Assembly (NCBI GenBank): GCA_030432465.1
Contig: JAUIHB010000001.1
Span: forward strand, 1 to 53,696
Origin: Gammaproteobacteria bacterium
GTDB lineage: Bacteria; Pseudomonadota; Gammaproteobacteria; Enterobacterales; Kangiellaceae
Direction of reading: 5' to 3'
DNA: 53,696 nt
In this document: positions 1 through 52,438 of the stretch, piece after piece
Position numbering within the stretch: the stretch's first letter is position 1
How the letters are laid out: each line of letters opens with the position of its first letter
Translations under genes and position numbers: made by a program
Notes under the pieces: model-generated
The model's database searches: none
Seen by the model: only the letters and a program-made list of their open reading frames with translations
What the model was told of the DNA's origin: nothing

Positions 1-2406
1 CAAACCTTAGTAAAAGATTTTATTGCACCAAAATATAAAGAAGGTTATGACAAGGGTGTACATGATTATGATGCGATTAAAATATTAAAACCTATTCTAA
101 CAAACTTTAATGCTGCCGGAAGTTTACGTTTTACACCAGAGGCTAGGGCTATTGCAACAATTTACTGGGTAAACAATCAGAATAAAGCAGAACAAAAACT
201 TTGGCCACAGCGTGCACAAAATGCGCTCAGAATGAGTGAACTATTTAGTACACATTCAGCTAAAGAGCAGTTTGGTCAAGAGATATCTCTTGCATTTAAA
301 GTCATGTTAGAAGCAGAAAATTTATCTTTCGATAAAAATTTACTAACCAGTGCTGCCGATTATTTAATTATGGAAATTGGTCAAACTAATATTCGTTTTG
401 CTGTTTCTAAATATGCCGATGAACTCGTTAAGTCATTTAAGCTTCATTTGGAAACTAACGATGCATGGCAAAATTATCAAAAAGCACTTGATAGTTTAAG
501 TGGACAAATCGGTAAGCGCTGGCATTTAACTTACCAATGGCTTACTGGATTTAATCAATTTTCTCAAAATACAACTTTAGCAAACTATATACCTGAAGCA
601 GTGGCACTGCTTAATGCAGAAAATCGCTTAGACAGGCATGTTCATCAAGTAGACTTAAGTTTTAAAGTTGATGACCTTATTGGTCAACATAAGCGCATTA
701 AAAATCAATCGATGACTTTGACATTAGATGAATTTTTACAGCGTTTAGCTCATCATGCAAATGTAGTTGTTCCCCGGTATCACCGATATCACGAAATTCG
801 TCAGCAACAAGTCGAAATTCAACGTAAAAAACTAAGAGTTGAAGACTTTATTCCAAAACCATTGACTTCATTTGTAAGAAACAAGTTAATTAATGAGGCT
901 TATCTACCAGTGATTGGCGATAATCTGGCGAAGCAAATGGGCACTGTTGGTGATAACAAAAGAACAGACCTAATGGGGCTGTTGCTCATGATTTCTCCTC
1001 CCGGCTATGGAAAAACAACACTGATGGAATATGTTGCAAGTCGTCTGGGACTAATCTTTATGAAAATAAATTGTCCATCTATCGGACACGATATTACGTC
1101 AATTGATCCAAGTCAAGCTAAGAATAGTGCGACCAGACAAGAACTTGAAAAACTTAATTTAGCACTCGAAATGGGAAATAATGTCATGTTGTATTTAGAT
1201 GACATTCAACACACTAACCCTGAATTTTTACAAAAATTTATTTCTCTGTGTGATGGAACCCGACGTATTGAAGGTATTTGGAACGGTAATGCTAAAACGT
1301 ATGATATGCGCGGTAAAAAATTCTGTGTGGTTATGGCTGGTAACCCTTACACTGAATCGGGAGAGTTATTTCGAATTCCAGATATGCTCGCGAATCGTGC
1401 AGACATATACAATCTAGGTGATATGTTATCAGGGCAGGAAGAAGTTTTTGAGTTAAGCTACGTTGAAAACTCGCTAACATCAAATGCGATACTTGCGCCG
1501 CTGGCTACCCGTGAAATGAGCGATATTTACAAACTTATTGATATGGCTAAAGGTGGCTCTACTGCTACAACCGATCTAAGTCATCAATATAGCGGAGCTG
1601 AAATTAATGAGATGACGAATGTATTTAAAAAGTTGTTTAAAATTCAAAAAACCGTTTCCAAAATAAATCAACAATATATCTTATCAAGCGCACAAGATGA
1701 TAAATACCGCGAGGAACCACCATTTAAGCTCCAAGGCTCTTACCGCAACATGAATAAAATGGCAGAGAAAATTTCTGCGGTAATGACTGATGATGAGCTT
1801 GAGAAAATGATTGATGATCATTATCAAGGTGAATCCCAGTTACTCACAACCGGTGCTGAAGAAAACCTTTTAAAGTTAGGTGATCTACGAAATAATTTAA
1901 ACGATGAACAAAAAAAGCGCTGGAATGCGATTAAACAAGATTTCAAACGCAATTTGTCTATTGGCGGAGATGATAGTAATGCTGGTGATAAAATAGTGTT
2001 ACAACTTAATGATCTTGTTAACCAGATATCTAAACTCAGCTCAACTTTTAATAGTAAAGTTGAGCATAAAAATAATGAAAAAGAAATTAGTTCCAGTGAG
2101 GCTGCAGTAAATATTCTCGCTAATAGGCTTGATTCATTTACCCAAAGTTTAAAGAGTTCTCAACCACCTAATGTTGAGGTAATTAATCAACCCGTTCCAG
2201 GTATTGAAAAATTATTAAGAGTAATTGCTGACACTTTTGAAAATAGTATTAAGCCTTTAATCCAAGTTATGGATGGTAAATTAAACTTAGATTTAAAAAC
2301 TCATGAAAAAATGACCGATATTGAAGGAAAACTTTCCCAATTAAATGATGTGGTAATATCAAAGCGAAAAAATCAAACCACCAATAAAGGCGATACTCGC
2401 AAATAA
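1..2406 (+). CDS. Large AAA+ ATPase ('DNA repair ATPase'/DUF3686-type family), 5'-truncated by the window
   Basis: Frame 1 is open from base 1 (QTLVKDFIAPKYKEGYDKGVHDYDA...) into the 232..2406 ORF. Walker A SPPGYGKT, Walker B YLDDIQH, coiled-coil C-terminus. Family recognised from motifs only. Confidence 0.75.
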   Translation, partial: QTLVKDFIAPKYKEGYDKGVHDYDAIKILKPILTNFNAAGSLRFTPEARAIATIYWVNNQNKAEQKLWPQRAQNALRMSELFSTHSAKEQFGQEISLAFKVMLEAENLSFDKNLLTSAADYLIMEIGQTNIRFAVSKYADELVKSFKLHLETNDAWQNYQKALDSLSGQIGKRWHLTYQWLTGFNQFSQNTTLANYIPEAVALLNAENRLDRHVHQVDLSFKVDDLIGQHKRIKNQSMTLTLDEFLQRLAHHANVVVPRYHRYHEIRQQQVEIQRKKLRVEDFIPKPLTSFVRNKLINEAYLPVIGDNLAKQMGTVGDNKRTDLMGLLLMISPPGYGKTTLMEYVASRLGLIFMKINCPSIGHDITSIDPSQAKNSATRQELEKLNLALEMGNNVMLYLDDIQHTNPEFLQKFISLCDGTRRIEGIWNGNAKTYDMRGKKFCVVMAGNPYTESGELFRIPDMLANRADIYNLGDMLSGQEEVFELSYVENSLTSNAILAPLATREMSDIYKLIDMAKGGSTATTDLSHQYSGAEINEMTNVFKKLFKIQKTVSKINQQYILSSAQDDKYREEPPFKLQGSYRNMNKMAEKISAVMTDDELEKMIDDHYQGESQLLTTGAEENLLKLGDLRNNLNDEQKKRWNAIKQDFKRNLSIGGDDSNAGDKIVLQLNDLVNQISKLSSTFNSKVEHKNNEKEISSSEAAVNILANRLDSFTQSLKSSQPPNVEVINQPVPGIEKLLRVIADTFENSIKPLIQVMDGKLNLDLKTHEKMTDIEGKLSQLNDVVISKRKNQTTNKGDTRK

Positions 2407-2733: not shown

Positions 2734-2819
2734 TTATTATCCTTAATCAAAATAAATATATCCCATTATAATATTTATTCATCAAATAAACACAAGCACC
2801 ACAATTTATTTTTTCTATG

Positions 2820-2847
2820 AAAAAACCGCTTACAAATGTAAGCGGTT
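2820..2847 (-). terminator. Intrinsic terminator of the serine protease gene
   Basis: Inverted repeat AACCGCTTACA/TGTAAGCGGTT with an A-run on its left (U-tract on minus strand), 27 nt past the stop. Confidence 0.8.
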
Positions 2848-2874
2848 ATCTTCACAAAGTTTACTTTAATACTA

Positions 2875-4380
2875 TTACGGGTTTGCAGTAATATTTAAAG
2901 TAACTCCTGATGCAGAATTGTAACCATACAAATCAATGTACCAGGTATCACCTGCAGGCGATTCAAAGTTACAAGTTTCACTGTTACCGTTTTTATAAGG
3001 ACGGCAATCATAACTGGACAAAGTTGAAGGTGCGCCTCTTCTTACATACAAATCAGCATCACCACTTCCACCAGATATAGTCGCAGTTAGCGAAGAATAT
3101 CCAGCTGGTACAACTTGAGTGAAACGTGTCCAACTTGAGCGATCAACAGAAATATCAGTAATCGTTCTGTCAATAGGATCGTTACCATTTGGATCACTAT
3201 AACTTGCAACAACACTAACCCCTGAAAATGCAGAGTAGGCTTTTAAACGAACATAGTAAGTACCACCAGATTGTGTTCCTGTACAAGACTCAGCATTGCC
3301 ATTTTTGTACGGACGACAGTCGTAACTAGAATCTGTTGGAGCAGAACCAAATTTTACATACAAATCAGCATCACCTGAACCACCGCTCATTTCAAAGTTT
3401 ATATTAGAAGCGCCAGCAGGTACTTCAAAAGTATAATTTAATGAATTTCCACGAGTTGCACTTAATCCTGTTTTTGGTACACCATTTTCAAGATCACCAC
3501 CAGGAGGAGGTGTAGTACCACCAATTTTATCGTTAATCCAATTCACAAATTTGTAGGTATCTGCATATACACCATATTTATTGCGTCGAGCACAACCGTC
3601 TCCCCAACTTACCACACCAATACTATAAATTTCATTTTGATAAGCAGCTACAATCGGGCCGCCGCTGTCTCCCTGGCAAGCATCTTTACCACCTTGCTGA
3701 TAACCCGCACACATCATTGTATTATTAATTCTGCCATTATAGGCTTCTGGTTGATTACAAGTTGCATTAGACACTACAGGCACGTCTACTTCATATAATA
3801 CATCAGGACTTCCACCACCTTCAGATAAAGCTCCCCAACCAGAGACGGTTAACATATCACCTGGAGAGCCTGCGGCTTGAATAACTTCTGCAGTTGGTAG
3901 TTTAGCTCGAACATAACTACTATTGATTGTTCCACTAACTTTTAACAAAGCAACATCGTAACCACCACCAACACTATTGAAGTTCTCATGAACAATTTTT
4001 TCAACAACATTGTGTGTTTCACCTTCATTAGAGCTCAAACGATATACACCAACACGCACGCTATTTGGCCAGCTGTTAGATACACAGTGAGCTGCAGTTA
4101 AAATCCATTGATCGGCAATAATAGTACCACCACATCCACCATTACCTAAAGATACTTGATAGGTACGATCGCCCTGTGTTGCAGGGTTACCACCAACAAT
4201 ATATGGCGTAATATTGACAAACGGTACACTTGGTTTCGCGACTTTATTTGAGGCTTGCTCATCATCTTGCACAGAAGTTAATTCATTATCTTGTGCATAA
4301 AGGGTATTGCTTGCAAGCATGAGGGATACAGCAAGCGCTCCACTAGCGAGCTTAAGAGAGGCTATTAATTTTCTCTTCAT
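2875..4380 (-). CDS. Secreted trypsin-like (S1) serine protease with two C-terminal PPC domains
   Basis: Signal/propeptide, mature IVGG start, TAAHC, DVALL, DACQGDSGGP; two SGGSGDADLYV...YDCRPYKNGN.E.C repeats typical of pre-peptidase C-terminal domains. Confidence 0.93.
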   Translation of the reverse strand: MKRKLIASLKLASGALAVSLMLASNTLYAQDNELTSVQDDEQASNKVAKPSVPFVNITPYIVGGNPATQGDRTYQVSLGNGGCGGTIIADQWILTAAHCVSNSWPNSVRVGVYRLSSNEGETHNVVEKIVHENFNSVGGGYDVALLKVSGTINSSYVRAKLPTAEVIQAAGSPGDMLTVSGWGALSEGGGSPDVLYEVDVPVVSNATCNQPEAYNGRINNTMMCAGYQQGGKDACQGDSGGPIVAAYQNEIYSIGVVSWGDGCARRNKYGVYADTYKFVNWINDKIGGTTPPPGGDLENGVPKTGLSATRGNSLNYTFEVPAGASNINFEMSGGSGDADLYVKFGSAPTDSSYDCRPYKNGNAESCTGTQSGGTYYVRLKAYSAFSGVSVVASYSDPNGNDPIDRTITDISVDRSSWTRFTQVVPAGYSSLTATISGGSGDADLYVRRGAPSTLSSYDCRPYKNGNSETCNFESPAGDTWYIDLYGYNSASGVTLNITANP

Positions 4381-4625: not shown

Positions 4626-5339
4626 TTATTTTTTAAACGTACTAAAAGCTGTTTCTATTTGACGATATAAATCATGTACCCACAATGGCTTGTTTTTATC
4701 GACGGGAAAAAGTGTTTTTTCTCTTGGATCATGAGGTGCAATAATGACTTTAACATTTTCTTTGCCTATTACTTGCGTCAAATAAAATAGTTCTTCAATA
4801 GCTTCATCTCCTACAGCAAGACAACCAATAGAAACTGCTTTTCCGTGAATAAAAATATCGCTGCCAGGCTCTAACCTTCCTTCATCATTTGCATGTTTAA
4901 GATCAAATTTATTAGGATAATTAAGTTTGATTGATAAATGATAACTACTGTTTGGATTTAACCAAGGTATTGTATAAATACCTTCTGGTACTTGGCGATC
5001 ACCTTCACGTAATTTTGGCCCAGCAACACCACTTGCCGCAGTAACTTTATAAGAATGAACAAAATGCCAAGCACCTTGCTGATACGCCCAAACCTCTAAC
5101 TGCTTCTCTTGTTTTAAACCAAGTAGAGCTATCTTTTTTACTGGAAAAATAAGTTTAGCATTATTAAATTTTTTACCAATTCTAGATTTAGCATCTTTTT
5201 CTAAGCTATCCATAACCTCAGTCAATGTTTTCGCTCCTGCTATTTGAGAATAAAAGGGAAACCAGAGCGATCGAGCGTAGATATAAAATACTATTCCTGA
5301 AAAAACAATCAGCATACCTATCCAAGTCAATAGTCTCAT
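4626..5339 (-). CDS. L,D-transpeptidase family (YkuD domain; YafK/DpaA-like) protein
   Basis: N-terminal TM anchor; GPKLREGDRQVPEGIY, NPNSSYHLSIKLNYPN, IFIHG..VSIGC (His/Cys catalytic motif). Confidence 0.85.
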   Translation of the reverse strand: MRLLTWIGMLIVFSGIVFYIYARSLWFPFYSQIAGAKTLTEVMDSLEKDAKSRIGKKFNNAKLIFPVKKIALLGLKQEKQLEVWAYQQGAWHFVHSYKVTAASGVAGPKLREGDRQVPEGIYTIPWLNPNSSYHLSIKLNYPNKFDLKHANDEGRLEPGSDIFIHGKAVSIGCLAVGDEAIEELFYLTQVIGKENVKVIIAPHDPREKTLFPVDKNKPLWVHDLYRQIETAFSTFKK

Positions 5340-5368
5340 ATAATACCCATAATATTGATTATTAAAGT

Positions 5369-8035
5369 TTAATCCTTAATCCGTGTTAATAGATCATTAA
5401 TACAAATATCGCTATTTTCAAGCCATTCACTATAAGATAACGGATAAATAACAATACCTGCTCTTTTTAAAATCTGGTAAGTGGTTATCTCGAAAAAATT
5501 TTCCCAATGACCAGGATAACCAATTAAATCTATAGCAATATATTGATTATTTTTCTTAAAAAGAATATCAATATACTGGCCTGCCACAAAATATCCTTTC
5601 CAAACAGGTAGTGATAAATCACGTAGCTTTAGAGCGACTTCTTGTTGAAACTTATCAATCTCATCATGCTGAGTGTTTAAAGTTTTTTGTTGCTGAATAA
5701 AGTCTATATACTCGGAGAGTAAACTACCTTTAACAAGAAAATCATCATTAAATGACAAAAAAACAAATTGCTCAGTTTTTGCTCGAGTAATACAAACATT
5801 AAACATATCTTCTTTATTTAAATAACTAACCGCTCGTCGAGAAGAGTTATCAATTGAAAAAGAAAGTAGCATAATATCTCTTTCTTCCCCTTGAAAACCA
5901 TAAGGTGTAGCACATCGAATATTGAAATTTTTAATGTCTTTGGTATGAATATTTTTCTCAAGCAATTTATTTATATAATCAGCTTGAGCCCTAAATGGAG
6001 AAATAATACCAATACTAATCTGCTCTATTTTCTCTTGGTAAAACTGAATTAATTGAGAAACTTTTTCAATAACTGCTGTTGCCTCAATTCGGTTTACACC
6101 AGATGAATCTCTTTTTCCATTCACAGATAAAAGATGAATATTGCCAAGGCATTCATCAGGTCGATGCTGCATTATTTTTAGTCTTTGGTTGTAAAATTTA
6201 TAGTTACTAAAACCAATTATTTTGGGAACACTTCGAAAATGTTCATCTAAAAAGACACTCATTGGACTTTGAGCAGCTAGGTCTAAAATACTTTCATCTC
6301 TATAACTTAAAACACCTTTTTCCATAGATGTTAAACCAAGTTGAGTTAAGCAGTCTTGCTGCTCTTTACGCGAAACAAAAGAGAAATGTCTTAACTGTTT
6401 AATATCCCCAACAATCACTGCTCTTTTTGCTCGGTATAATGCAGGAATACAGGAGGCTATATTGCACTGTGTTGCCTCATCAATAATCACCAGATCAAAC
6501 AACTCTTTTTTAAGTGGTAAAACTTTATGCAGACTATCTAAGCTCACCAACCATATATTAAAAGCATGAGTTAATTGCTCATAGTTAATTGTATCAAACA
6601 ACTCTTTTTGTTTTAGTGATGTTCGCGCTCTTACCGCTTTATTCAATATTTCTAATTGTTCGCGGTGTTCATTTAATAATATTTTTTTTCTTTCACAGTC
6701 TCCAGCGATAAGAAACTCCGCTGAGAGTTTCTGTTTAACATCAATCAAATGATAAATTTTTTGTATCAATTCACGCTTATTATTACGATCAGAAAATTTA
6801 ACAAGCACTAACTGTAGTAGTTTAAAAAGATTAAGGCTTTTGTTTTTATTTTTATAAACCAGATAGCCATGAGAAATAGCTATTTTACACTGGCGAATAA
6901 AAATTTTTTCATTTTTACTGAGTTGTTTGTTGATATTTTTTAATTCTGCCTGTAAATCTTTACTATTTATTTTTTCATTTAAACTAACATATCCTTTTAA
7001 TAAATTATCGAGATAAGTTTTAAAACGTTTTAAAAAAGCTTTTTCTCCTGCTCTGATAACAGACCCTTCTAGCTTCGAAACTAGTGAAAATTTCTCTTCT
7101 ATTACATCAAGCGCATGTTCATTATTAGCAACAATAAGTACGCTTTTCCCTCTAGACATATGTTCTGCTGCAACGGCGGCAATGGTATAACTTTTTCCTG
7201 TACCAGGAGGCCCATAAATAGTTGAAAGAGCTTGATTAGCCGATATAAAAAGAGATTTTTTTTGCGCCTTACTTAGCAACATAGGCAAACAGCTATCATT
7301 GATTAAGACATCTGCTTTCTGGTTTTTACCGTTAGATTGTTCATCAAAAGCATGCCGTAATGGTTGAGATAAACTGCCACTTTCACAAATATTTTTTAGT
7401 TCGTGTAATATTCCTCTGCTTCCTCTAGCTTTGTCCACCAAAATTAATTGGGCAAAGGATAATAAAACCAAATTATTATTTTTTGTTTGCTTAATAATAG
7501 AGCTACGTGTTGACAGTTTGGGAAACCGAAAGGTATCTTTTACATCAATTTGAGGCGTATATTTTTGAAACCAACCAAGCCAGTTTGAAGGAGAAAAACA
7601 CTGGTCTTTATTGATAGGATAATTTGTTGAGTCTGGCGCTAACCACTTTAGTAAGTGAAAATTAAATTGCGGATTTTCTGGCGTTATGCTCAGATAATAT
7701 TTTTCACCTTGCAGACTTAATTCCGCATCGTAATAAACAAGTGGCGACGCAATTTGCTTTTCCTGCCCTTGGACTTCGCTAGTTCCCACTAAATAGCACG
7801 CTGTATAAATCAGCTTTTTTTCACGTTGATAAGTTTCAACATTATTCTGTATTTTATTAGCGACTTCAAAAGAAACAGGAACTCGGGGCAAGAAACCGCT
7901 AGTAAGTTCTTCTTCTTGGGGAGTCCAGTAGCTGTCTTTTTTAGCTTTTATTAAATTCCATAAACTTAACTCTCCAACATCCTTTTTATAGCATTCTCGA
8001 TAATAGTGAATTTTATTTTGAATTGCATCCCTCAA
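5369..8035 (-). CDS. Superfamily 1 (Upf1/DNA2-like) helicase with probable C-terminal restriction-endonuclease-like (Vsr/DUF559-type) domain
   Basis: GPPGTGKS, IIDEATQ, VGDIKQL, LDEHFRS, ISPFRAQ, FQGEERD, NVCITRAK; C-terminal FQQEVA..L...IDI...IAID...YQILKRAG pattern. TTG start uncertain. Confidence 0.85.
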   Translation of the reverse strand: MRDAIQNKIHYYRECYKKDVGELSLWNLIKAKKDSYWTPQEEELTSGFLPRVPVSFEVANKIQNNVETYQREKKLIYTACYLVGTSEVQGQEKQIASPLVYYDAELSLQGEKYYLSITPENPQFNFHLLKWLAPDSTNYPINKDQCFSPSNWLGWFQKYTPQIDVKDTFRFPKLSTRSSIIKQTKNNNLVLLSFAQLILVDKARGSRGILHELKNICESGSLSQPLRHAFDEQSNGKNQKADVLINDSCLPMLLSKAQKKSLFISANQALSTIYGPPGTGKSYTIAAVAAEHMSRGKSVLIVANNEHALDVIEEKFSLVSKLEGSVIRAGEKAFLKRFKTYLDNLLKGYVSLNEKINSKDLQAELKNINKQLSKNEKIFIRQCKIAISHGYLVYKNKNKSLNLFKLLQLVLVKFSDRNNKRELIQKIYHLIDVKQKLSAEFLIAGDCERKKILLNEHREQLEILNKAVRARTSLKQKELFDTINYEQLTHAFNIWLVSLDSLHKVLPLKKELFDLVIIDEATQCNIASCIPALYRAKRAVIVGDIKQLRHFSFVSRKEQQDCLTQLGLTSMEKGVLSYRDESILDLAAQSPMSVFLDEHFRSVPKIIGFSNYKFYNQRLKIMQHRPDECLGNIHLLSVNGKRDSSGVNRIEATAVIEKVSQLIQFYQEKIEQISIGIISPFRAQADYINKLLEKNIHTKDIKNFNIRCATPYGFQGEERDIMLLSFSIDNSSRRAVSYLNKEDMFNVCITRAKTEQFVFLSFNDDFLVKGSLLSEYIDFIQQQKTLNTQHDEIDKFQQEVALKLRDLSLPVWKGYFVAGQYIDILFKKNNQYIAIDLIGYPGHWENFFEITTYQILKRAGIVIYPLSYSEWLENSDICINDLLTRIKD

Positions 8036-8076
8036 GAGACTTCCTTAACTTAGCGTAATAATTTTATAACTGAGGT

Positions 8077-8508
8077 TCAACTTTCACTTTTATCAAAATT
8101 ACGTAAAGAACTAAAAAACATACCAGCTCCTCCCGCGATTAGAACTAACAATGTCATAATATCAAAAGCACTCATAGGAACTAAGGTCATGCGAATATTA
8201 ATAATAATTCCTGCAATTAATGCCACTACACTTGCCCCAGTGAGTAACCAACCAAGAATATTTTTACTATTCCAGAATATCATCACAACTCCAATGATAA
8301 ATGGAATTAAAATCATTCCGCCAGTCACGCCATAACCACCACCAAGAGAATAAAGGTGTGAGCCCATTCCAAAACCACGTGAAAAAGCTCCTGTTGTTAC
8401 CATAATTTTTGAAAGAAATAAGTAAGTACCAACCACCATCATCAGCAGACCAGCTAAGTATCGGCCTACTCCTCCGCTTGTTCCTCCTGCACCTTTAGGC
8501 TTATCCAT
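8077..8508 (-). CDS. Gly-rich 4-TM membrane protein, unknown function
   Basis: 143 aa, four hydrophobic helices; start overlaps the channel gene stop (translational coupling). Confidence 0.8.
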   Translation of the reverse strand: MDKPKGAGGTSGGVGRYLAGLLMMVVGTYLFLSKIMVTTGAFSRGFGMGSHLYSLGGGYGVTGGMILIPFIIGVVMIFWNSKNILGWLLTGASVVALIAGIIINIRMTLVPMSAFDIMTLLVLIAGGAGMFFSSLRNFDKSES

Positions 8509-9628
8509 TAATTTTTTTCTCCTTTTGAACAGTAATAATAATTCTTTCTATAGCTTCTTGAGTTGGGATATGATCTTGATGAACTAAAATGATAATCGCA
8601 ACACCGCTCGCCGGCCTTAGAGGCGCAGGATTTGTACTAACATTACCATCCTCATGCACATAGCCAACGGGTGTACCTAAACCTTGTTTTATAAACTCAC
8701 AAGCTAAGTCACTCCATTTCTCAACATCGAAGATAAAATCAAATCTTAAAGCGCTATCTCCAGCATGACCAAATAAGTTCTCCATAAATCGTTCTGTTCC
8801 AGGAGCCTCCATCGCACGAACAATTAATTCTGGATAGGCTCTTATAGGCCTGATAACTGCCGTCGCACCTAAATGCTGAAAGCGTTTTCTATTTTCATCC
8901 TTAACAACTTCTGCAATGATTGTCGCTGAAATTTTTTTCTGATGTAGATGAAATAATATATCTAAAGTCATTGAGTCAGAAGCAATATCACCACTATCTG
9001 GAGAGATTACTGCAACATAACATGCGGTTTGAATATTTGCTCTTTCCAGCACAAGATCTTCACGAGCATCACCATGCACATGTACTACATTTAAATCCAA
9101 CAAGCTCAAAGGCAGACCATTTTCAAACTTATCTGAAATAATACAAATTGGTAAATCTGAAAATTTGGGTGTTTGGCGTAACTGCCGACATAATCTCTCT
9201 AAATATAACCGCGGATGACTATTGGGAGTATTTATGATTACAATATGTTCTGTCATTTTTTGCCAGCTCCAAAGCCCTTTTATTTTACGTTCTTTTTTTT
9301 CAAATCGAAATTCTACATACTCTGTTGCTAGTTGTGCCATCAGAGTGATACCTAAACCATACATCAGAATAACCGTTGAAGTACGGCCTATCAATGTAGT
9401 ACTACTTAAGTCTCCATAACCTGTAGTATTGATAGTTGTTAAACTTAACCATAATGCATCACCAAAAGAAAACCCTTCAAAAATCATCATGGCAATTGCG
9501 TGAATCATTACAATTGCCATAACAAAAATAAATAAACGTCTTATCCTATGTTTTGACTCTATCATCAAACCACGAGAATACATTTGACGACGTTTATTAC
9601 GTAACAATTTGCGCAGTTGTTTTAACAT
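8501..9628 (-). CDS. 2-TM potassium channel with RCK/TrkA-N domain
   Basis: DALWLSLTTINTTGYGDL pore helix and filter between two TM helices; VHGDA...LERANI Rossmann-like RCK domain. Confidence 0.9.
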   Translation of the reverse strand: MLKQLRKLLRNKRRQMYSRGLMIESKHRIRRLFIFVMAIVMIHAIAMMIFEGFSFGDALWLSLTTINTTGYGDLSSTTLIGRTSTVILMYGLGITLMAQLATEYVEFRFEKKERKIKGLWSWQKMTEHIVIINTPNSHPRLYLERLCRQLRQTPKFSDLPICIISDKFENGLPLSLLDLNVVHVHGDAREDLVLERANIQTACYVAVISPDSGDIASDSMTLDILFHLHQKKISATIIAEVVKDENRKRFQHLGATAVIRPIRAYPELIVRAMEAPGTERFMENLFGHAGDSALRFDFIFDVEKWSDLACEFIKQGLGTPVGYVHEDGNVSTNPAPLRPASGVAIIILVHQDHIPTQEAIERIIITVQKEKKING

Positions 9629-9647
9629 TCTGACCTAGTTTTTAATC

Positions 9648-9962
9648 TTATTTTTCAGCGATATCTATAAGCTTTTTAGTAACCGCATGCTTTATGGCTA
9701 TTCGATCATCAGCATCAATAGAAAACATTTGTCCTAATTCCTGATAATCTTCATCACTAAGAGTTACAGTCAAACGCGGTCTAACTTTTTTCGTTTTAAA
9801 GGAAAGTCCTAAAATTTTTCTAATATAATCCGATGGTTTTAACTGATTTTCTACTGACTGTACTTGAATATGGTTATGTACACTTTCACTGACATCAAAA
9901 GCAACCTGAGTAGCTTTGGCTGCTTGTGCTTGTTTTTCCCACTTTTGATTTGATTTTGCCAT
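9648..9962 (-). CDS. Small basic protein, probable tandem ribbon-helix-helix DNA-binding protein
   Basis: ATQVAFDVSESVHNHIQVQSVENQLKPSDYIRKILGL and RPRLTVTLSDEDYQELG fit the RHH strand-helix-turn-helix pattern. CDS status is solid; fold is inferred. Confidence 0.6.
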   Translation of the reverse strand: MAKSNQKWEKQAQAAKATQVAFDVSESVHNHIQVQSVENQLKPSDYIRKILGLSFKTKKVRPRLTVTLSDEDYQELGQMFSIDADDRIAIKHAVTKKLIDIAEK

Positions 9963-9977
9963 AATATACTCTAATTA

Positions 9978-10616
9978 TCAGGTTTTTCCGTACAACCCTT
10001 TAATATCGGCAACAGGCCTTGATATGCCGACAAAAACATCTGTAGTGCCATCTTCCCAAACTTCAATATCCAAACTAAACATATCATCATCTGATGCCAA
10101 GCTAACTGATTCAAAGGGTTCTGAACCATCTTCTTCATATTGATTGCGTGTTTGGTTACGCTTATCTTGCTGATAGAAATAACCGCTATTCCACTCACCT
10201 TGTTGACGATAGCTTTTACCAAGCCATCTTTCATAATCACTAGCGTCACCTACTACTTCAACAGGCATTCTGCTAACGCCTTCATCAAATACTGCACCAA
10301 ATGCATCCATATCAAATAATTCTTCAACTTCTTCTCGATCAAGTTTCATCGTGAAATTAATCCATTTTTCACCATCTTCATTTTCAACACTCATATGAAC
10401 GGGCAATTGCTCTGGACCTTCTAATAAAAACTCAGTCACTTTTTCATGCTGGTATTCATAAGTATTAATTTCCATAACTTGAAATGTTTTTCCACGTAAC
10501 TCTTTAGGTAAGCCGAAAGAGTCAACTAGCTCTAGCATATCACCAACCTTGAGATCTTTAGGATCAGACAACTGTCGAATAGACTCTTCTTTTTTTCCAA
10601 AAAGTTTTTTAAACAT
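9978..10616 (-). CDS. Acidic DUF4178-like protein
   Basis: Amphipathic MFKKLFGK N-terminus, LKVGD motif, aromatic/acidic beta-rich body; position after pspA fits DUF4178/YjfK-type partners. Confidence 0.6.
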   Translation of the reverse strand: MFKKLFGKKEESIRQLSDPKDLKVGDMLELVDSFGLPKELRGKTFQVMEINTYEYQHEKVTEFLLEGPEQLPVHMSVENEDGEKWINFTMKLDREEVEELFDMDAFGAVFDEGVSRMPVEVVGDASDYERWLGKSYRQQGEWNSGYFYQQDKRNQTRNQYEEDGSEPFESVSLASDDDMFSLDIEVWEDGTTDVFVGISRPVADIKGLYGKT

Positions 10617-10656
10617 TTGATTTACTCTTTTGAACTTATACCTTCAGTAGGCAAAT

Positions 10657-10688
10657 AAAAAAGTCAGGTGAGTATTCACCTGACTTTT
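10657..10688 (-). terminator. Intra-operon intrinsic terminator / stabilising hairpin after pspA
   Basis: Perfect 13-bp inverted repeat AAAAGTCAGGTGA-gtat-TCACCTGACTTTT with U-tract on minus strand, 9 nt past the pspA stop. Confidence 0.85.
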
Positions 10689-10697
10689 CATGTTATG

Positions 10698-11381
10698 TTA
10701 CTTCTTTTTTAAACGAGCTAAAATGTCATTTGCTTGAGATTTGGTTTCTCCGATTCCCGCTTTAGCTAAACGATCTTTCAATGCTACATCTGTATTTTCA
10801 GCATTTAGTTCCTCAGAAGCTTTAATTTTATCTTCTGTTCGTTGCTGTCTTTCTTTAATACGATTTAAAGAGTCACGTGCTGCTGCTGTTTTCGATACAT
10901 TTGAAGACAAAGAATCATTTACCGAGACTCTAGCTTTTTGTACACTTTCAGTAGTTTTCACTACAGATAATTCACGTTTATTTTCTTGAATCGACTTTTC
11001 TGCTTTTCTGATTTGATCTTTCAAGCTAACAACACTCGCTTTGTAATTATCTAAAACAGGTTGCAATTCATTAACTTCATTCTCGTACTCAGCAATTTTT
11101 TCCGCAACTTCTAATGCTAAACCTTCGTCACCCTTTTCTAACGCTTGTGATGCATAAGTTTCGTGCTCACCAATGCGATCTTTTAATGCGTTAATCTGGC
11201 GCGCAGTCTTTGATTGATCCGCCATTACATCAGTTAACGAATCTTTCGCTCGAGCTATTGCATTTTCCTGATCAACAATTTCCTGCTCAAGAATACGAAT
11301 AGCATTTACATCAACAATCGATTCACCAACTTCTCTAGCTCCACCCCTAATTGCAGTTACAATTTTCTTTAATATACTCAT
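10698..11381 (-). CDS. PspA/IM30 (ESCRT-III-like) family protein, YjfJ-type
   Basis: MSILKKIVTAIRGG...RILEQEI, ALEKGDEGLALEVAEKIA, long coiled coil, C-terminal ILARLK; adjacent to YjfI rather than pspF/pspBC. Confidence 0.92.
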   Translation of the reverse strand: MSILKKIVTAIRGGAREVGESIVDVNAIRILEQEIVDQENAIARAKDSLTDVMADQSKTARQINALKDRIGEHETYASQALEKGDEGLALEVAEKIAEYENEVNELQPVLDNYKASVVSLKDQIRKAEKSIQENKRELSVVKTTESVQKARVSVNDSLSSNVSKTAAARDSLNRIKERQQRTEDKIKASEELNAENTDVALKDRLAKAGIGETKSQANDILARLKKK

Positions 11382-11432
11382 ATTCTTTCTCCTGACGCTA
11401 ATGTTAATTCAAATTCAATTTGTCAATTTCAA

Positions 11433-11849
11433 TTAATTTAAAAATTGTTCCAATGCTTCCAACGCTTCTAATGAGTTTTCAGCTTGAGTCACTAATTCGT
11501 GAGCAATATTTTCAACTAATGTCCCAACACTCATCGCACCAAATAAAACATATTGTTCATCGATGACACCAAATGAGCTCAGCGGTACATTGACGGTTAG
11601 TTGTAACAACGTACTATTTAACTCATTAACCAAATCAGGTTTAACTTCTGACTTAGTAAATAAATTAGTTACACATAAAATTTGCTCATCAGTTGCTGTT
11701 ACATAAACAGGTAATTCATCAAAACCTTCTACCGTTACTTGTAAAACAGTAATTTCGCCTTCACCATTTTCTTGCATTGGTAGTACATCTAGAGCAAAGC
11801 CATCTTGCACAAAACCATTCAGTTTAATTGCGAGTTCCTTTAATGACAT
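11433..11849 (-). CDS. YjfI (DUF2170) family protein, CesT-like chaperone fold
   Basis: ELPVYVTATDEQIL, VPLSSFG, YVLFGAMS motifs; directly upstream of the pspA homolog as in yjfI-yjfJ. Confidence 0.85.
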   Translation of the reverse strand: MSLKELAIKLNGFVQDGFALDVLPMQENGEGEITVLQVTVEGFDELPVYVTATDEQILCVTNLFTKSEVKPDLVNELNSTLLQLTVNVPLSSFGVIDEQYVLFGAMSVGTLVENIAHELVTQAENSLEALEALEQFLN

Positions 11850-11872
11850 GATGTAGATATCCTCATAGTTAT

Positions 11873-11885
11873 GACATAAAATGTC
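11873..11885. promoter_or_regulatory. Palindromic operator copy 1 (GACATAAAATGTC)
   Basis: GACAT-N3-ATGTC, identical to the copy at 11912-11924; lies just downstream of the predicted transcription start. Confidence 0.75.
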
Positions 11886-11897
11886 GTCGTTGCAGTT

Positions 11898-11926
11898 AAG
11901 ATAACGCTGCCGACATAAAATGTCAA
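11898..11926 (-). promoter_or_regulatory. Internal sigma70 promoter for yjfI-pspA and downstream genes
   Basis: Minus strand TTGACA (11926-11921), 17 nt spacer, TATCTT (11903-11898). Confidence 0.75.
11912..11924. promoter_or_regulatory. Palindromic operator copy 2 (GACATAAAATGTC) overlapping the -35 box
   Basis: Exact 13-bp repeat of 11873-11885, offset 39 bp. Confidence 0.75.
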
Positions 11927-11939
11927 CAGCAAATTTAAA

Positions 11940-13673
11940 TTATTTTTTAGCTGGAGCATAAACTCCAACATCACGCTGCCATGCTTGGGTGTGATACTGA
12001 TAAATCACCCCACTTCCTAAGTAATTAACCTTAGCGTCAGTTAAATCTTGATAATAGTTGCTGGGCATAGCAAAGGCCCCATTCAATAACGGTAAAGTCA
12101 CATAACCGTTATCTACTGGCAACTGAGTATTTTGTTTTATTCGCTCTGAAGGAGGACTGCCCATAATACTGGCAATAGTCCATCCCCATTCACCAAACGA
12201 AGGGACATTTTGTCGATATTGCTCTACATGGTCAAATCCAGCCTGTTTAACCGTTTTACCAATACTTAAAAAAGCACTCCGAGCATGAAATGGCGAAGTT
12301 GATTGAACCACCATAATGCCATCTCCACTGAGCAACTGTGCTACTCGAGCATAAAAGTAATCAGAATACAGCTTATTTAAATCGGGATGGCTAGGATCAG
12401 GCAAATCAATAATGACAGTATCAAATTTTTGATTGGATTCGAGTAATTTTTCAATTTCTATGAAAGCATCACCAAAAATCACTTCGACTCGGGAATCTTC
12501 AAATGCCGCTTCATTGAGCACCATCAATCGTTGTTTAAGTTGTAGAGTTTTTTCATCCGTATTTCTCGTGTACTTCTCTGAAAATAATTCCACAAGACCT
12601 TTATCCAAGTCAACCAAAGTAACCGCTTTAGGCTCCCACTTAAGCACATCGCGTAACCCTAACCCGTCACCGCCACCAATAATAAGTACCTTATCATGAC
12701 GAGCAGAAGCCAACATGGCGGGGTAAGTCAGCATTGCATGGTAAATCCTTTCATCTAAACTACTAAATTGTAATCGTCCATTTAAATACATATCTAATAC
12801 AGGTTCTTGACGAGAACCAAAAGAACGCTGAGTAAAGGTAATATTTTGGTATTGAGTATTGGCCTGATAAATCACCTTATCGCGGTATAAAACATTGGAA
12901 AAATCACTCATCCAACGTGCACCACTATCAGCTACGATAAGCAATAACCCTAATAGACATAAATGAAAAAAGACGAGCCAACCCGGTCGCTTGATTTTTT
13001 GCCAATAACGCCACAGAAAAATGCCACCAGCAACAACATTCAACAAAGCAGTTAACACAGCAGCCAGAGTAATGTCCAAAGATAACATTAATGTGACCCA
13101 GACAAACGCTCCCATACCTGCTCCGATGTAATCCGCTCCGTATATAGTGCCAACATTATTCTCTAGATGTTGACCGTAAACTGCTTCTCGGACTTTGGCG
13201 ATAAGCGGAATTTCCATCCCAATAAGTAAACCTAGAATAAAACCAAATATAAATGGTAAAAATCGTGCGTAGTATTGAAATTGCTCTATTACGCCCCCTC
13301 TTATTATGGTGTCTGGCGGCATATTATAGGTTGTTGATAATAGTTCGGGTAACAATCCAGTGAGCGCAATAATACCAGCAATTAGCAAGGTGGCGCTGAC
13401 ACCTATTAATGCAACTATTGCTTCTAACCATGCAAATGCAGAGAAAGGATCTTTGAACCACTTAGCAGTCCACGCACCAACCCCCATGGCAACGATCATC
13501 AATCCAATCATGGTATAAATGGTTGTTTCCATTATGCCAAGTACGCGACCTGCATAGTGAGACAACAAATATTCATAAATCAGTCCACAAGCTGCAAGAA
13601 CCATCATGATACCCATTAAAAAGATATCATGACGGATCAACTGCCAACGTTTCGTTTTTTCAGCAACAATCAT
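11940..13673 (-). CDS. Membrane-anchored polyamine aminopropyltransferase (spermidine synthase-like), paralog 1
   Basis: About 7 N-terminal TM helices (ACGLIYE, GMEIPL, ADYIGA); catalytic domain LQFSSLDERIYH, LIIGGGDG, IIDLPDP, VPSFGEWG. Confidence 0.9.
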   Translation of the reverse strand: MIVAEKTKRWQLIRHDIFLMGIMMVLAACGLIYEYLLSHYAGRVLGIMETTIYTMIGLMIVAMGVGAWTAKWFKDPFSAFAWLEAIVALIGVSATLLIAGIIALTGLLPELLSTTYNMPPDTIIRGGVIEQFQYYARFLPFIFGFILGLLIGMEIPLIAKVREAVYGQHLENNVGTIYGADYIGAGMGAFVWVTLMLSLDITLAAVLTALLNVVAGGIFLWRYWQKIKRPGWLVFFHLCLLGLLLIVADSGARWMSDFSNVLYRDKVIYQANTQYQNITFTQRSFGSRQEPVLDMYLNGRLQFSSLDERIYHAMLTYPAMLASARHDKVLIIGGGDGLGLRDVLKWEPKAVTLVDLDKGLVELFSEKYTRNTDEKTLQLKQRLMVLNEAAFEDSRVEVIFGDAFIEIEKLLESNQKFDTVIIDLPDPSHPDLNKLYSDYFYARVAQLLSGDGIMVVQSTSPFHARSAFLSIGKTVKQAGFDHVEQYRQNVPSFGEWGWTIASIMGSPPSERIKQNTQLPVDNGYVTLPLLNGAFAMPSNYYQDLTDAKVNYLGSGVIYQYHTQAWQRDVGVYAPAKK

Positions 13674-13753
13674 TGTAAGTACTCACTGACAAAACTCAAC
13701 TTGTGGTAAAATAACGTAATATAAATTACTCATTGTTGCTCTTAAGTCGGCTA

Positions 13754-14647
13754 TCAAACTAATGCGGTTAACACTAAGCCTAAAGAGATAAAAATAGCCC
13801 CCTCAACAGCGGCAACACCAACATTTTGTTCACGATCCACTTCTTCAGCCACATCAACTCCGGTCAACACCAGTTTTCTGACCAAAATAGCAAGAATGGC
13901 AAAAATAGGCATTGTCACCAAAGCGACTCCAGCCCATAGCACTGCCGATAACCAATAATGCTCAAGAGAAAAAGTCACAACGTGAGATGCTGTTGTTACC
14001 ATAAGTGCTGCACCGATGATAAATGCTGCATAACGCAAGGCTAGTGCGGTATTACCTTCAGAAATTGCCGTTTGTAAACAGTTATTTGAACCGGTATTAC
14101 GAACTTTAAACAGTTTCACTCGATATAAAGAAGCAACTAACATCACAATTTGCGACAATACAAAAGCAACTAATAATAAAGGGATTATGCTGAAATCCGA
14201 ATTAGGCATCCAAACCATAACAGAGCGGACAATTAAGCCAACCCCAACCATGTGGCCGACATCCACCAATGCACAAGCAACGTTACCTTTCGCCAACTCA
14301 CCATGAATATCCATTTGGCGAAGTACAAATTTATCTTGAATTAAGCGTCCAGCTAATATCAAAACCAACCCAATTGCACCAAACACAAGCATAGAGATCA
14401 CTTCAGCAATCATGGCATCAGCGGCTTCTCCGGAAGAAACGCCGGTCAACATAATGGCAAGTGCTAAAATAGCACCACCAAAGCTAATCCCAAAAGCTGC
14501 ATTATTATTAGCTACTAGTTCATTTTGCGAATGCACATTAGCTAATACCCCTTTCAAAAATTTCAAACTTACCAAAAGCGCCACAACGATTAATAAATCG
14601 AGAGCCAGCACTTGAGCATTCCAGATATACATTTGATTAAATTGCAT
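13754..14647 (-). CDS. DUF350 family membrane protein (duplicated domains)
   Basis: About 8 TM helices with repeated motifs ELVANNNAAFG, ELAKGNVACAL, ISEGNTALAL, EVDREQNVGVA. Confidence 0.85.
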   Translation of the reverse strand: MQFNQMYIWNAQVLALDLLIVVALLVSLKFLKGVLANVHSQNELVANNNAAFGISFGGAILALAIMLTGVSSGEAADAMIAEVISMLVFGAIGLVLILAGRLIQDKFVLRQMDIHGELAKGNVACALVDVGHMVGVGLIVRSVMVWMPNSDFSIIPLLLVAFVLSQIVMLVASLYRVKLFKVRNTGSNNCLQTAISEGNTALALRYAAFIIGAALMVTTASHVVTFSLEHYWLSAVLWAGVALVTMPIFAILAILVRKLVLTGVDVAEEVDREQNVGVAAVEGAIFISLGLVLTALV

Positions 14648-14665
14648 GATTATTTTCCCCTTAAA

Positions 14666-15610
14666 CTATTTGCCACGACGCGGACCACGGCTAGTTCGTG
14701 AACTGCCACGTCGTCCAGAGCTGGTAACGGTATTACGATACGATGAAGACTGACGAAAACTGCCAGATGATGGCCTTGCCTTACTAGTACGACTCATACT
14801 CGTCGCACCTGAGCGCTGCTTGGCGTACGGACTATTAAACCGTTTACCTTGTTGGCGAAAATTTTTCTCCGTACGTGTTTCTAATTGATTTTGTCGAGCC
14901 ATCGCTGATGGCTTAGTATACCGAGAGCGACCATAATCATGATAATAAGAATAAGGCCTATTTCCTGACCAGCTAGAATAGCGATACCGATGATCAGTCA
15001 AATTGGAAAATAACGCATACATACCATACCATTCCCAAATACTAATCCCGCTACTGTTGGTTTTCCAGTTTCCATACTGAGGGTTTCCAACTAACTGAGA
15101 ACCTACTGTATTTTGAGAACCGTTAATCCTTTGCTCTACATTTTTATCAACGGACTGCACTCGAGGTAACTTTCCATTAGACAGATCAGCCAATACGTTA
15201 ATTGTGTCAGACAAAGCGTCATTGAAGACTTGGCGGTCTAGTGCGTCTTTTAACGCCTGAGTTTCGGCAAGTGTCTGTTCTAACAAATTGGCAGTATCGC
15301 CCGGATGCTTTTTAACTTCCTCTAATCGTTCAACAAGTCCCTGTACAAAAGGACCATCAACTTCACCATTTTTGGCCAAATTATCGATCAGGGTCGCATG
15401 TTCCGGGGTAATTTTTTTTAGTCGTTTGGCATAGTCAGCTAATAATACCGCATTACTAACATTACCCGACTGAAGTGCTTGCTTGAGTTGTTCGAGCTTA
15501 CGCTCGACAATTGGTACCTCTGATTGTATTTGTTCATTCAACCGATCGGATTTACTACTACAAGCTGAAAGAACCAGTACAAAAAATATCAATATCCAGT
15601 GTTTGTACAT
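14666..15610 (-). CDS. Lipoprotein with helical body, aromatic-rich motif and Arg/Ser/Gly-rich tail ending RRGK
   Basis: Lipobox LSAC; LVGNPQYGNW...IWEWYGMYALF; low-complexity basic C-terminus; AGGAG RBS. Confidence 0.8.
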   Translation of the reverse strand: MYKHWILIFFVLVLSACSSKSDRLNEQIQSEVPIVERKLEQLKQALQSGNVSNAVLLADYAKRLKKITPEHATLIDNLAKNGEVDGPFVQGLVERLEEVKKHPGDTANLLEQTLAETQALKDALDRQVFNDALSDTINVLADLSNGKLPRVQSVDKNVEQRINGSQNTVGSQLVGNPQYGNWKTNSSGISIWEWYGMYALFSNLTDHRYRYSSWSGNRPYSYYHDYGRSRYTKPSAMARQNQLETRTEKNFRQQGKRFNSPYAKQRSGATSMSRTSKARPSSGSFRQSSSYRNTVTSSGRRGSSRTSRGPRRGK

Positions 15611-52412: not shown

Positions 52413-52438
52413 ATTAAATCACTAAATATAAGAACACT

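What the first reader, a model, noticed from the sequence alone, without database searches (positions are those of the whole stretch)
4626..15610. 11-gene envelope-stress-like system: lipoprotein, DUF350, aminopropyltransferase, YjfI, PspA, DUF4178, RHH, K+ channel, TM protein, helicase-nuclease, L,D-transpeptidase
Seen: eleven co-directional genes with gaps all under 100 bp. Established: YjfI-PspA(YjfJ)-DUF350 plus a lipoprotein form the E. coli yjf cluster, where the enzyme is an ATP-grasp glutathionylspermidine-synthase-like ligase (YjfC), and PspA is an ESCRT-III-like membrane-protective protein. Here the enzyme slot holds a membrane-anchored spermidine-synthase-like protein, there is no pspF/pspBC, and the locus adds an RCK-gated channel, a putative repressor, a helicase-nuclease and a peptidoglycan enzyme. 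Inference: a self-regulated unit coupling membrane repair, ion flux and polyamine chemistry, possibly with an anti-phage arm. Parts of this neighbourhood have been noted in comparative genomics; I know of no functional characterisation of this configuration.
Basis: partly seen in the sequence, partly recalled or inferred. Interest (0 to 1): 0.85.

Follow-up and report, generated by a model that had tools for sequence, protein, structure and literature searches.

The report
PspA–polyamine envelope operon with repressor switch

Summary
All eleven genes are real, co-directional and closely spaced, but they are not one system. Lipoprotein–DUF350–membrane aminopropyltransferase–YjfI–PspA–DUF4178–RHH is exactly the 'second group' operon of Ravi et al. 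2024. The K+ channel and 4-TM gene follow it in 6 of 17 related loci; the helicase and YkuD gene in 0 of 17, so the anti-phage arm is unsupported.

Two features were not found in print. (1) A tandem palindrome GACAT-N3-ATGTC covers an internal promoter before yjfI. It occurs in 26 of 61 genomes, all with the RHH gene (28 of 61), and all 30 sites precede yjfI or pspA. (2) The lipoprotein ends in Lys in 106 of 106 complete copies, and lacks it in the 3 genomes without the enzyme. Unrelated partners of the same enzyme family also end in Lys (32 of 39 loci), including a second pair in this window. E. coli's counterparts end Gly-Gly beside peptide–spermidine ligases. Both mechanisms are inferred, not tested. 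This scan noted both ideas earlier on other DNA.

The parts
14666..15610 (-). Lipoprotein (Ctha_1186 type), 314 aa: lipobox Cys17, helical domain, Arg/Ser/Gly-rich tail ending in Gly-Lys; predicted acceptor of the aminopropyl group
   Evidence: Ravi et al. supplement row
13754..14647 (-). DUF350/YjfL membrane protein, 297 aa, two DUF350 repeats, 8 hydrophobic segments
   Evidence: Pfam PF03994 E 3e-37; hydropathy
11940..13673 (-). Membrane-anchored aminopropyltransferase-like protein (PRK03612 family), 577 aa; Q276, H312, GGGDG 333-337, D423 and D426 invariant in 21 of 21 aligned
11912..11924 (.). Palindrome box 1 (GACAT-TTT-ATGTC on the minus strand), overlapping the -35 hexamer
11898..11926 (-). 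Predicted sigma70 promoter: TTGACA (11926-11921), 17 nt, TATCTT (11903-11898)
   Evidence: one of two 10/12 matches; the scan as a whole is at chance level; TT before box 1 kept in the aligned promoters
11873..11885 (.). Palindrome box 2, just downstream of the predicted start site
11433..11849 (-). YjfI/DUF2170 (CesT/Tir-like chaperone fold), 138 aa
   Evidence: Pfam PF09938 E 5e-29; fold of the homologue BacA from PMC10948618 section 36
10698..11381 (-). PspA/IM30 (YjfJ type), 227 aa
   Evidence: Pfam PF04012 E 3e-41; far below the TIGR02977 PspA cut-off
10659..10688 (-). 13-14 bp hairpin followed by a U-run after pspA; terminator- or stabiliser-like
   Evidence: gap folds at -26.2 kcal/mol, z -6.6
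9978..10616 (-). DUF4178 protein, 212 aa
   Evidence: Pfam PF13785 26 bits, cut-off 25
9648..9962 (-). Tandem ribbon-helix-helix protein, 104 aa; predicted repressor of the promoter before yjfI
8501..9628 (-). 2-TM K+ channel with TTGYG filter (68-72) and RCK/TrkA_N domain, 375 aa; accessory member (7 of 17 related loci)
8077..8508 (-). 4-TM protein of no known family, 143 aa; accessory member (8 of 17 related loci, once moved upstream of the lipoprotein)
5369..8035 (-). SF1 (Upf1-like) helicase with weak C-terminal nuclease match, 888 aa; not conserved with the operon
4626..5339 (-). YkuD-domain protein, 237 aa, HGKAVSIGC motif, best NCBIfam match DpaA/LdtF (below cut-off); not conserved with the operon
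1..2406 (+). 3' part of the giant AAA+ ATPase gene that ends a rhomboid-yqiJ-flotillin-ATPase operon converging on this locus (5' part on contig C221)

Best explanation
The stretch is a known PspA-linked envelope operon built from two modules, followed by two genes that are likely passengers: the membrane enzyme likely transfers an aminopropyl group onto the C-terminal lysine of the co-encoded lipoprotein, and the tandem RHH protein likely represses an internal promoter that drives yjfI-pspA. Module 1 is lipoprotein-DUF350-aminopropyltransferase. Shown: the three genes are always together in the loci examined, the enzyme keeps its active-site motifs, and the lipoprotein ends in Lys. Inferred: decarboxylated SAM is the donor, DUF350 presents the substrate in the membrane, and the product is a polyamine-tipped, strongly basic tail, chemically close to the Gly-spermidine end that YjfC/YgiC would make on the Gly-Gly tails of YjfM/YgiB. 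Module 2 is yjfI-pspA-DUF4178-RHH-K+ channel-4TM. Shown: two 13-bp palindromes cover the -35 and start region, and they co-occur with the RHH gene. Inferred: the RHH binds them and represses; stress lifts repression, most likely through YjfI or PspA as partner; PspA then polymerises on damaged membrane; the hairpin after pspA keeps repressor and channel levels below PspA. The helicase and YkuD genes fill the variable junction between this operon and the converging flotillin-ATPase operon.
For: Identity with the published operon. Synteny in 17 loci: first three genes 17/17, yjfI-pspA 15/17, DUF4178 14/17, RHH 11/17, channel 7/17, 4-TM 8/17, all nine in order 6/17, helicase 0/17, YkuD 0/17. GC3 is 0.33-0.35 for the first three genes and 0.20-0.26 for the rest. 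Operator: in 11 of 17 loci, the same 11 that carry the RHH; 26 of 61 genomes, all among the 28 of 61 with the RHH, reversed-pattern control 0; the two RHH genomes without an exact pair have one exact box before yjfI; 30 of 30 sites directly precede yjfI or pspA; 77 of 120 sites of a GTDB-wide scan do so too. RHH fold. Terminal Lys: 17/17 loci picked by the enzyme; 106/106 complete copies from 108 genomes; among 44 loci picked as weak or early-ending matches, 41 have enzyme and GK and 3 have neither, and those genomes gave no enzyme match. Unrelated Lys-ending partners at 32 of 39 loci of the enzyme family across the phylum; background 8 of 2376 ORFs in this genome, two of them the two partners. 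E. coli YjfM and YgiB end in Gly-Gly next to genes annotated as peptide-spermidine ligases. A speD fragment with a speE-like gene behind it is present in this genome.
Against: No binding, activity or transcript was measured. The operator could be read by another factor that travels with yjfI-pspA; 13 of 85 A/T-centred sites in the GTDB scan had no yjfI/pspA next to them, and related genomes are not independent. The loss of terminal Lys with loss of the enzyme rests on 3 genomes in 2 lineages, and two of those lipoproteins lost most of the tail. 7 of 39 distant enzyme loci showed no Lys-ending neighbour, and the partners were picked partly by eye. A lipoprotein tail should be periplasmic while decarboxylated SAM is cytoplasmic; no clear transmembrane segment was found in the mature lipoprotein. 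5 of the 17 relatives with the enzyme had no PF02675 SpeD match. One of 7 other helicase loci lies 2.8 kb from a pspA-flotillin operon (L051), so a loose link is not excluded.
Confidence: 0.62

Rival explanations
1. Same operon and operator, but the enzyme acts on a small molecule or lipid (an unusual polyamine, an amino-lipid or an envelope precursor); the terminal Lys is a sorting, turnover or DUF350-binding signal and is not modified.
For: The catalytic domain is closest to soluble spermidine/thermospermine synthases; Ravi et al. propose polyamine monitoring or aminopropylation of other substrates; the topology problem for a lipoprotein tail.
Against: Terminal Lys follows the enzyme, not DUF350: the three loci that keep DUF350 but lack the enzyme lost it, and the second pair in this window has the Lys-ending lipoprotein directly before the enzyme with no DUF350 gene beside it.
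Confidence: 0.25
2. One reading: all eleven genes are one co-regulated unit in which the helicase-nuclease is an anti-phage arm and the YkuD protein remodels the wall during the same stress response.
For: Short gaps and no obvious terminator between the 4-TM gene, helicase and YkuD; partial matches of the helicase core to Mokosh, Hhe and ProA models; one homologue near another pspA operon.
Against: 0 of 17 related loci have either gene; helicase in 2 of 60 relatives and 5 of 399 class genomes, none in this arrangement; YkuD in 8 of 60, none with a psp or helicase gene within 1.5 kb; defence matches cover only the shared SF1 core and are far below the NCBIfam cut-offs.
Confidence: 0.07
3. The palindromes are read by a different, global regulator, or the RHH is an activator or antitoxin-like partner rather than the repressor.
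For: Only co-occurrence links protein and site; fold scores are low, best Z 4.6; a few A/T-centred tandem sites lie away from any pspA operon.
Against: Presence and absence of site and RHH agree within four genera that have both states; most genomes have a single tandem site, which does not fit a global regulator; the boxes cover the -35 and start region, the usual place for a repressor; E. coli yjf has neither an RHH gene in the locus nor the box.
Confidence: 0.12

Closest known systems
Ravi et al. 2024 (PMC11237479) 'second major group' CesT/Tir-PspA operon; archetype Shewanella oneidensis SO_3765 neighbourhood
   Same: Same seven genes in the same order: lipoprotein (Ctha_1186 + low complexity), YjfL/DUF350, TM + spermine synthase, CesT-DUF2170, PspA, DUF4178, RHH (section 19 read in full; supplement row).
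   Different: Here a K+ channel and a 4-TM gene follow (the paper lists the channel only with the ATP-grasp group). In the passages and supplement searched, the paper gives no operator, no internal promoter and no substrate.
E. coli yjfIJKLMC and ygiBC (DUF1190 lipoprotein + ATP-grasp peptide-spermidine ligase)
   Same: yjfI-pspA pair, DUF350, a lipoprotein with a Gly/Ser/Arg-rich tail, and a polyamine enzyme.
   Different: Enzyme is an aminopropyltransferase, not an ATP-grasp ligase; the lipoprotein is not homologous to YjfM (hhalign probability 0.6%) and ends Gly-Lys, not Gly-Gly; DUF4178 replaces DUF2491; E. coli has no RHH in the locus and no box before yjfI.
Pseudomonas aeruginosa bac operon / CesT-PspA + YqiJ + flotillin + AAA+ ATPase (Ravi group 1; PMC10948618)
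   Same: Same YjfI-PspA pair; in many relatives this operon type carries the same RHH and tandem box; its flotillin-ATPase half converges on this locus.
   Different: bac has no spermidine-synthase-like gene and a proposed sigma54 promoter (passages); no tandem box was seen before the flotillin operon of this genome.
CopG/Arc/NikA ribbon-helix-helix repressors; AvtR as a two-repeat example
   Same: Beta-alpha-alpha unit (NikA Z 4.6, rmsd 2.3, 49 aligned; Arc Z 4.3, rmsd 2.8, 43 aligned; CopG and AvtR among weak Foldseek rows).
   Different: Two RHH units in one chain; no Pfam family over cut-off; no sequence match in the PDB.
Canonical pspFABC system
   Same: PspA/IM30-family effector.
   Different: No PspF, PspB or PspC in the locus; the genome has that system separately; control here is predicted to be sigma70 plus a repressor instead of sigma54 plus PspF.

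Membership tests
Ravi 2024 group-2 CesT-PspA operon | CesT/DUF2170-PspA dyad | tested here: met
   PF09938 and PF04012 over cut-off, adjacent
Ravi 2024 group-2 CesT-PspA operon | N-terminal multi-TM domain fused to a spermine/spermidine synthase domain | tested here: met
   PF01564 at 308-504, PRK03612 over cut-off, 6 hydrophobic segments at my threshold
Ravi 2024 group-2 CesT-PspA operon | 8-TM YjfL/DUF350, Ctha_1186 lipoprotein with low-complexity tail, DUF4178 | tested here: met
   S. oneidensis homologue of the lipoprotein at 42% identity (P0037). No Ctha_1186 profile was available, so that name rests on position and this homologue
Ravi 2024 group-2 CesT-PspA operon | Gene order ending in an RHH gene | tested here: met
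   order equals the supplement row for SO_3765
PRK03612 membrane aminopropyltransferases | Score over curated cut-off and intact motifs | tested here: met
   591 vs 472 bits; GGGDG, DE..YH, DLPDP invariant in 21 of 21
PRK03612 membrane aminopropyltransferases | Aminopropyl transfer and acceptor identity | not testable with these tools
   acceptor inferred from terminal-Lys conservation
E. coli yjf / Ravi group 3 | ATP-grasp GSP-synthetase-like ligase | tested here: not met
   no such family among the eleven proteins
E. coli yjf / Ravi group 3 | DUF1190 lipoprotein and DUF2491 | tested here: not met
   no Pfam hit to either; no profile match to YjfM
Ribbon-helix-helix DNA-binding proteins | Beta-alpha-alpha fold | tested here: met
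   model pLDDT 86 with two extended-helix-helix units; top rows of the wide fold search are RHH proteins for residues 12-54, best Z only 4.6; the second unit was barely tested
Ribbon-helix-helix DNA-binding proteins | Sequence-specific binding to the palindromes | not testable with these tools
   co-occurrence only
Canonical pspFABC | pspF, pspB, pspC in the locus | tested here: not met
   absent from the locus; present on contigs C294 and C56
Helicase-nuclease anti-phage systems (Mokosh, Hhe, ProA, PLuB) | Full-length match over family cut-off, with partner genes | tested here: not met
   ProA 165/1500, Hhe 90/2000, PLuB 109/999 bits; PADLOC hits cover the SF1 core only
Helicase-nuclease anti-phage systems (Mokosh, Hhe, ProA, PLuB) | Protection against phage | not testable with these tools
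   a stand-alone defence role for the helicase remains possible
L,D-transpeptidase (YkuD) | YkuD domain with His/Cys motif and transpeptidase activity | tested here: inconclusive
   domain and motif present; best NCBIfam match is the amidase DpaA/LdtF at 90/365 bits, so it may be a hydrolase

The most novel reading that the evidence does not exclude
Bacteria have a widespread, undescribed protein modification: membrane-fused aminopropyltransferases of the PRK03612 family build a polyamine on the C-terminal lysine of a co-encoded membrane protein or lipoprotein, converging on the same polyamine-tipped tail that YjfC/YgiC ligases would make on Gly-Gly ends. In marine Gammaproteobacteria this is coupled to a PspF-independent PspA response switched by a two-repeat RHH repressor whose regulon spans both the aminopropyltransferase-linked and the flotillin-linked PspA operons.
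Probability: 0.45. Interest if true: 0.8.

Novelty: new member of a known kind. Interest (0 to 1): 0.55.

Why it matters
The operon itself is published and the eleven-gene 'system' does not hold. What matters is that two open points become directly testable. First, the acceptor of this large family of membrane-fused spermidine-synthase-like enzymes is unknown; the terminal lysine gives a single residue and a single mass shift to look for. Second, the control of YjfJ-type PspA proteins, which lack PspF, is unknown; a 13-bp operator and its candidate repressor give a way to switch the module on and find its phenotype. Both can be tested in Shewanella oneidensis MR-1, which carries the seven-gene core.

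Tried and rejected
Anti-phage arm and wall-remodelling arm: rejected as members of the unit. Metagenome scan for helicase loci found no confirmed relative. Search for RHH fused to a longer protein such as YjfI: none scored (weak evidence). RHH profile against PDB sequences: none; Foldseek gave no match at E<=0.001 for the RHH or the lipoprotein model (pLDDT 68, tail disordered). Promoter/terminator scan of the region was at chance level overall (42 vs 41.7 promoters), so only the conserved site was kept. Single boxes elsewhere in this genome lie inside coding regions in the three cases checked; no tandem box before the flotillin operon. The 120 of 120 GK endings are partly circular (the profile holds the tail) and were not relied on. 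No RNA holder was listed. The protein Atlas gave no answer for the 4-TM protein. Two papers were not held (Li et al. 2019; a recalled PMC id for the 2009 amidoligase survey). GC-centred tandem matches in Patescibacteria and others (30 of 35 without yjfI/pspA) were treated as a different element.

Full report
OBSERVATION. The eleven ORFs are present on the minus strand at the stated coordinates, with gaps of -8 to 90 bp. The 104-aa protein has no family over cut-off, but an alignment-based model (55 sequences, pLDDT 86) shows two extended-helix-helix units, and the best structural matches to the first unit are RHH proteins such as NikA (Z 4.6, rmsd 2.3, 49 aligned) and Arc (Z 4.3). These Z values are low, as expected for so small a domain.

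THE CORE IS PUBLISHED. Ravi et al. [quoted passage not shown] The supplement row for S. oneidensis SO_3765 has the order seen here. They list a K+ channel only for the ATP-grasp group. The nearest named homologues of the lipoprotein are from Aliikangiella, Pleionea and other Kangiellaceae at 52-62% identity.

WHAT TRAVELS TOGETHER. Of 60 other genomes, 22 had a match to the enzyme. I took the 17 full-length matches at 50% identity or more and left out 7 distant ones at that stage. With 13 kb downstream (less for L042, cut by a contig end), one search gave: lipoprotein-DUF350-enzyme 17/17, yjfI-pspA 15/17, DUF4178 14/17, RHH 11/17, K+ channel 7/17, 4-TM gene 8/17, all nine in order 6/17, helicase 0/17, YkuD 0/17. 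In L027 and L028 a yqiJ-flotillin-AAA+ ATPase operon converges on the 4-TM gene. The same holds here: the window starts in residues 965-1728 of that ATPase and contig C221 ends in residues 1-953. So the helicase, YkuD, a trypsin-like protease and a 124-aa gene fill the junction between two operons. The helicase has full-length homologues in 2 of 60 relatives and 5 of 399 class genomes (one genome not scored). None of these 7 loci repeats the arrangement; one (L051) lies 2.8 kb before a pspA-flotillin operon with an opposite-strand gene between, and L054 has a similar neighbourhood without the helicase. YkuD homologues were in 8 of 60 relatives, none near a psp or helicase gene within 1.5 kb, and never in a helicase-bearing genome. 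Defence models match only the SF1 core, far under the NCBIfam cut-offs. A stand-alone defence role for the helicase is possible but untested.

AN INTERNAL PROMOTER AND OPERATOR. The 90-bp gap before yjfI holds two copies of GACAT-N3-ATGTC (11912-11924, 11873-11885). Box 1 overlaps TTGACA, which lies 17 nt from TATCTT; box 2 follows the predicted start. The pair is kept in 11 of the 17 loci while the flanks diverge, and these are the 11 with the RHH gene. Over whole genomes the tandem pattern is in 26 of 61 (reversed control 0) and the RHH in 28 of 61; all 26 are among the 28, and 33 have neither. The two exceptions have one exact box before yjfI. Both states occur within four genera. All 30 sites directly precede yjfI or pspA. 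The five before pspA have no RHH beside them but one elsewhere in the genome, and four of them head flotillin-ATPase operons, which points to a small regulon. Where a genome has two yjfI-pspA copies (G020, G003), the box goes with the RHH-bearing copy. E. coli yjfI has no such box. After pspA there is a strong hairpin with a U-run (z -6.6); of 15 relatives, 11 have a gap long enough to fold, with z from -1.5 to -5.9, and 4 have almost no gap. Binding, repression and the inducing signal are inferred. YjfI is a candidate partner because yjfI-pspA-RHH is the smallest unit seen (L064) and the BacA paper notes likeness to ExsC, a chaperone that is also a regulator (PMC10948618, passages and section 36).

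A CANDIDATE SUBSTRATE. The enzyme keeps the motifs of aminopropyltransferases (Q276, H312, GGGDG, D423, D426 invariant in 21 of 21; the roles of these residues are recalled, not read here). The lipoprotein has a basic tail (23 Lys/Arg, 2 Asp/Glu in the last 89 residues) ending RGK. It ends in GK in 17 of 17 loci picked by the enzyme. In 108 genomes found by a profile search of 401, 106 copies were complete: 105 end GK and 1 SK, with the enzyme downstream in 105 and one locus cut by a contig end; two were dropped (one truncated, one without a match). I then picked 44 weak or early-ending matches from 263 matching genomes of two families: 41 have the enzyme and GK, 3 have neither. Two of the three repeat L107 and L121, so this is 3 genomes in 2 lineages; the genomes gave no enzyme match and keep DUF350, yjfI, pspA, RHH and the operator. 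Across the phylum the enzyme family matched 41 times in 40 of 371 genomes. Of 39 loci examined (2 not fetched), 32 have a nearby protein with a Gly/Ser-rich tail ending in Lys, from several unrelated types: DUF4178 fusions, 45-90 aa membrane peptides and lipoproteins; 7 showed none, one of them with only 1.5 kb in view (judged partly by eye). In this genome 8 of 2376 ORFs of 150 aa or more meet a similar rule, and two of them are the partners of the two enzymes in this window. The second pair (52498-53070, 50835-52412) has a lipoprotein unrelated to the first that also ends RGK. E. coli YjfM and YgiB end in Gly-Gly beside genes annotated as peptide-spermidine ligases; a review says their physiological substrate is unknown (PMC11762307, passages). 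An aminopropylated Gly-Lys end and a Gly-spermidine amide are chemically alike, which suggests convergence on a polyamine-tipped tail (inference). From recall of Li et al. 2019, which I could not read, such fusion proteins do not make spermidine in E. coli; Ravi et al. cite it for 'aminopropylation of other substrates'. Against: topology is unresolved, and 5 of 17 enzyme-bearing relatives had no PF02675 match (class 2 decarboxylases were not searched). This genome has a speD fragment before a speE-like gene at the end of C325, and speD-like genes flank the enzyme in L035, L041 and L042.

IS IT IN PRINT? Searches for PspA/DUF350/YjfI, AdoMetDC-aminopropyltransferase terms, the box sequence, S. 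oneidensis locus tags, RHH + PspA + operator, DUF350 + aminopropyl, YgiC/YjfC terms, aminopropylation + C-terminal lysine and Shewanella/Pseudoalteromonas + pspA (122) found the operon but neither the operator nor the terminal-Lys idea; most results were seen as listings only. The library lacks most subscription papers, including Li 2019 and Pederick 2023, and preprint supplements were not seen, so either idea could be in print there. I also read passages of PMC12492005 (E. coli yjfIJKL raised in heat-adapted strains) and PMC11107197 (only reference-list hits). After finishing these analyses I looked up this scan's earlier notes: both the terminal-Lys idea and the RHH operator were noted on other genomes. 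They are unchecked AI notes and add no support.

VERDICT. Observation confirmed; interpretation partly supported. A new member of a known operon type with a two-gene extension, and two passengers. My odds: membership 0.97, helicase and YkuD as passengers 0.85, RHH as repressor at the boxes 0.8, terminal Lys as acceptor 0.55. Interest 0.55, because two open questions about a widespread system become simple experiments.

Noticed in passing
window 50835-53070 (-): A second PRK03612-family membrane aminopropyltransferase (525 aa, over cut-off) directly behind a 190-aa lipoprotein of no Pfam family that is unrelated to the first lipoprotein yet also ends RGK; a GNAT gene follows, no DUF350 gene adjoins. 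A similar pair is in L026.
   Followed up: partly
window 1-2406 (+) and G000:C221:2774-9031: The window starts inside a giant DUF3686/DUF7902 AAA+ ATPase gene; C221 holds its 5' half with rhomboid, yqiJ-like and flotillin-like genes, so the two contigs are probably adjacent and both PspA-associated operon types meet tail to tail, as in L027 and L028.
   Followed up: yes
L051, L053, L054, L055, L056: Second copies of the tandem box precede pspA genes that lack yjfI and RHH beside them; four head rhomboid-yqiJ-flotillin-ATPase operons, pointing to regulation in trans.
   Followed up: partly
L071, L076, L077, L084, L088, L110, L113, L122 and others: Patescibacteria and some other genomes carry repeated GACATC(C/G)GATGTC palindromes with no yjfI/pspA nearby; apparently a different repeat or operator.
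   Followed up: no
L126, L148, L179, L180: A/T-centred tandem boxes in Motilimonas, Colwellia, Shewanella and one unnamed gammaproteobacterium sit before small unrelated membrane-protein genes; possible further members of the RHH regulon.
   Followed up: no
G000:C294:4117-6381 and C56:2322-2989: A canonical pspF-pspA and pspA-pspC exist on other contigs, so this genome has both Psp types.
   Followed up: partly
L400, L401, L403, L404: In several betaproteobacteria the Lys-ending peptide, DUF4178 protein and speD lie on the strand opposite the enzyme gene, as a divergent pair of operons; a polyamine-oxidase-like gene (label recalled from Ravi et al., not scanned) follows the enzyme.
   Followed up: partly
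window 2359-4380 (-): A trypsin-like protease with two PPC domains and a 124-aa membrane protein whose 3' end overlaps the ATPase gene's 3' end by 48 bp; neither was seen in the 17 related loci.
   Followed up: partly
G003, G021, G041, G046, G054: Genomes (98-100% complete) with the intact enzyme but no PF02675 SpeD match; the aminopropyl donor there is unexplained.
   Followed up: no
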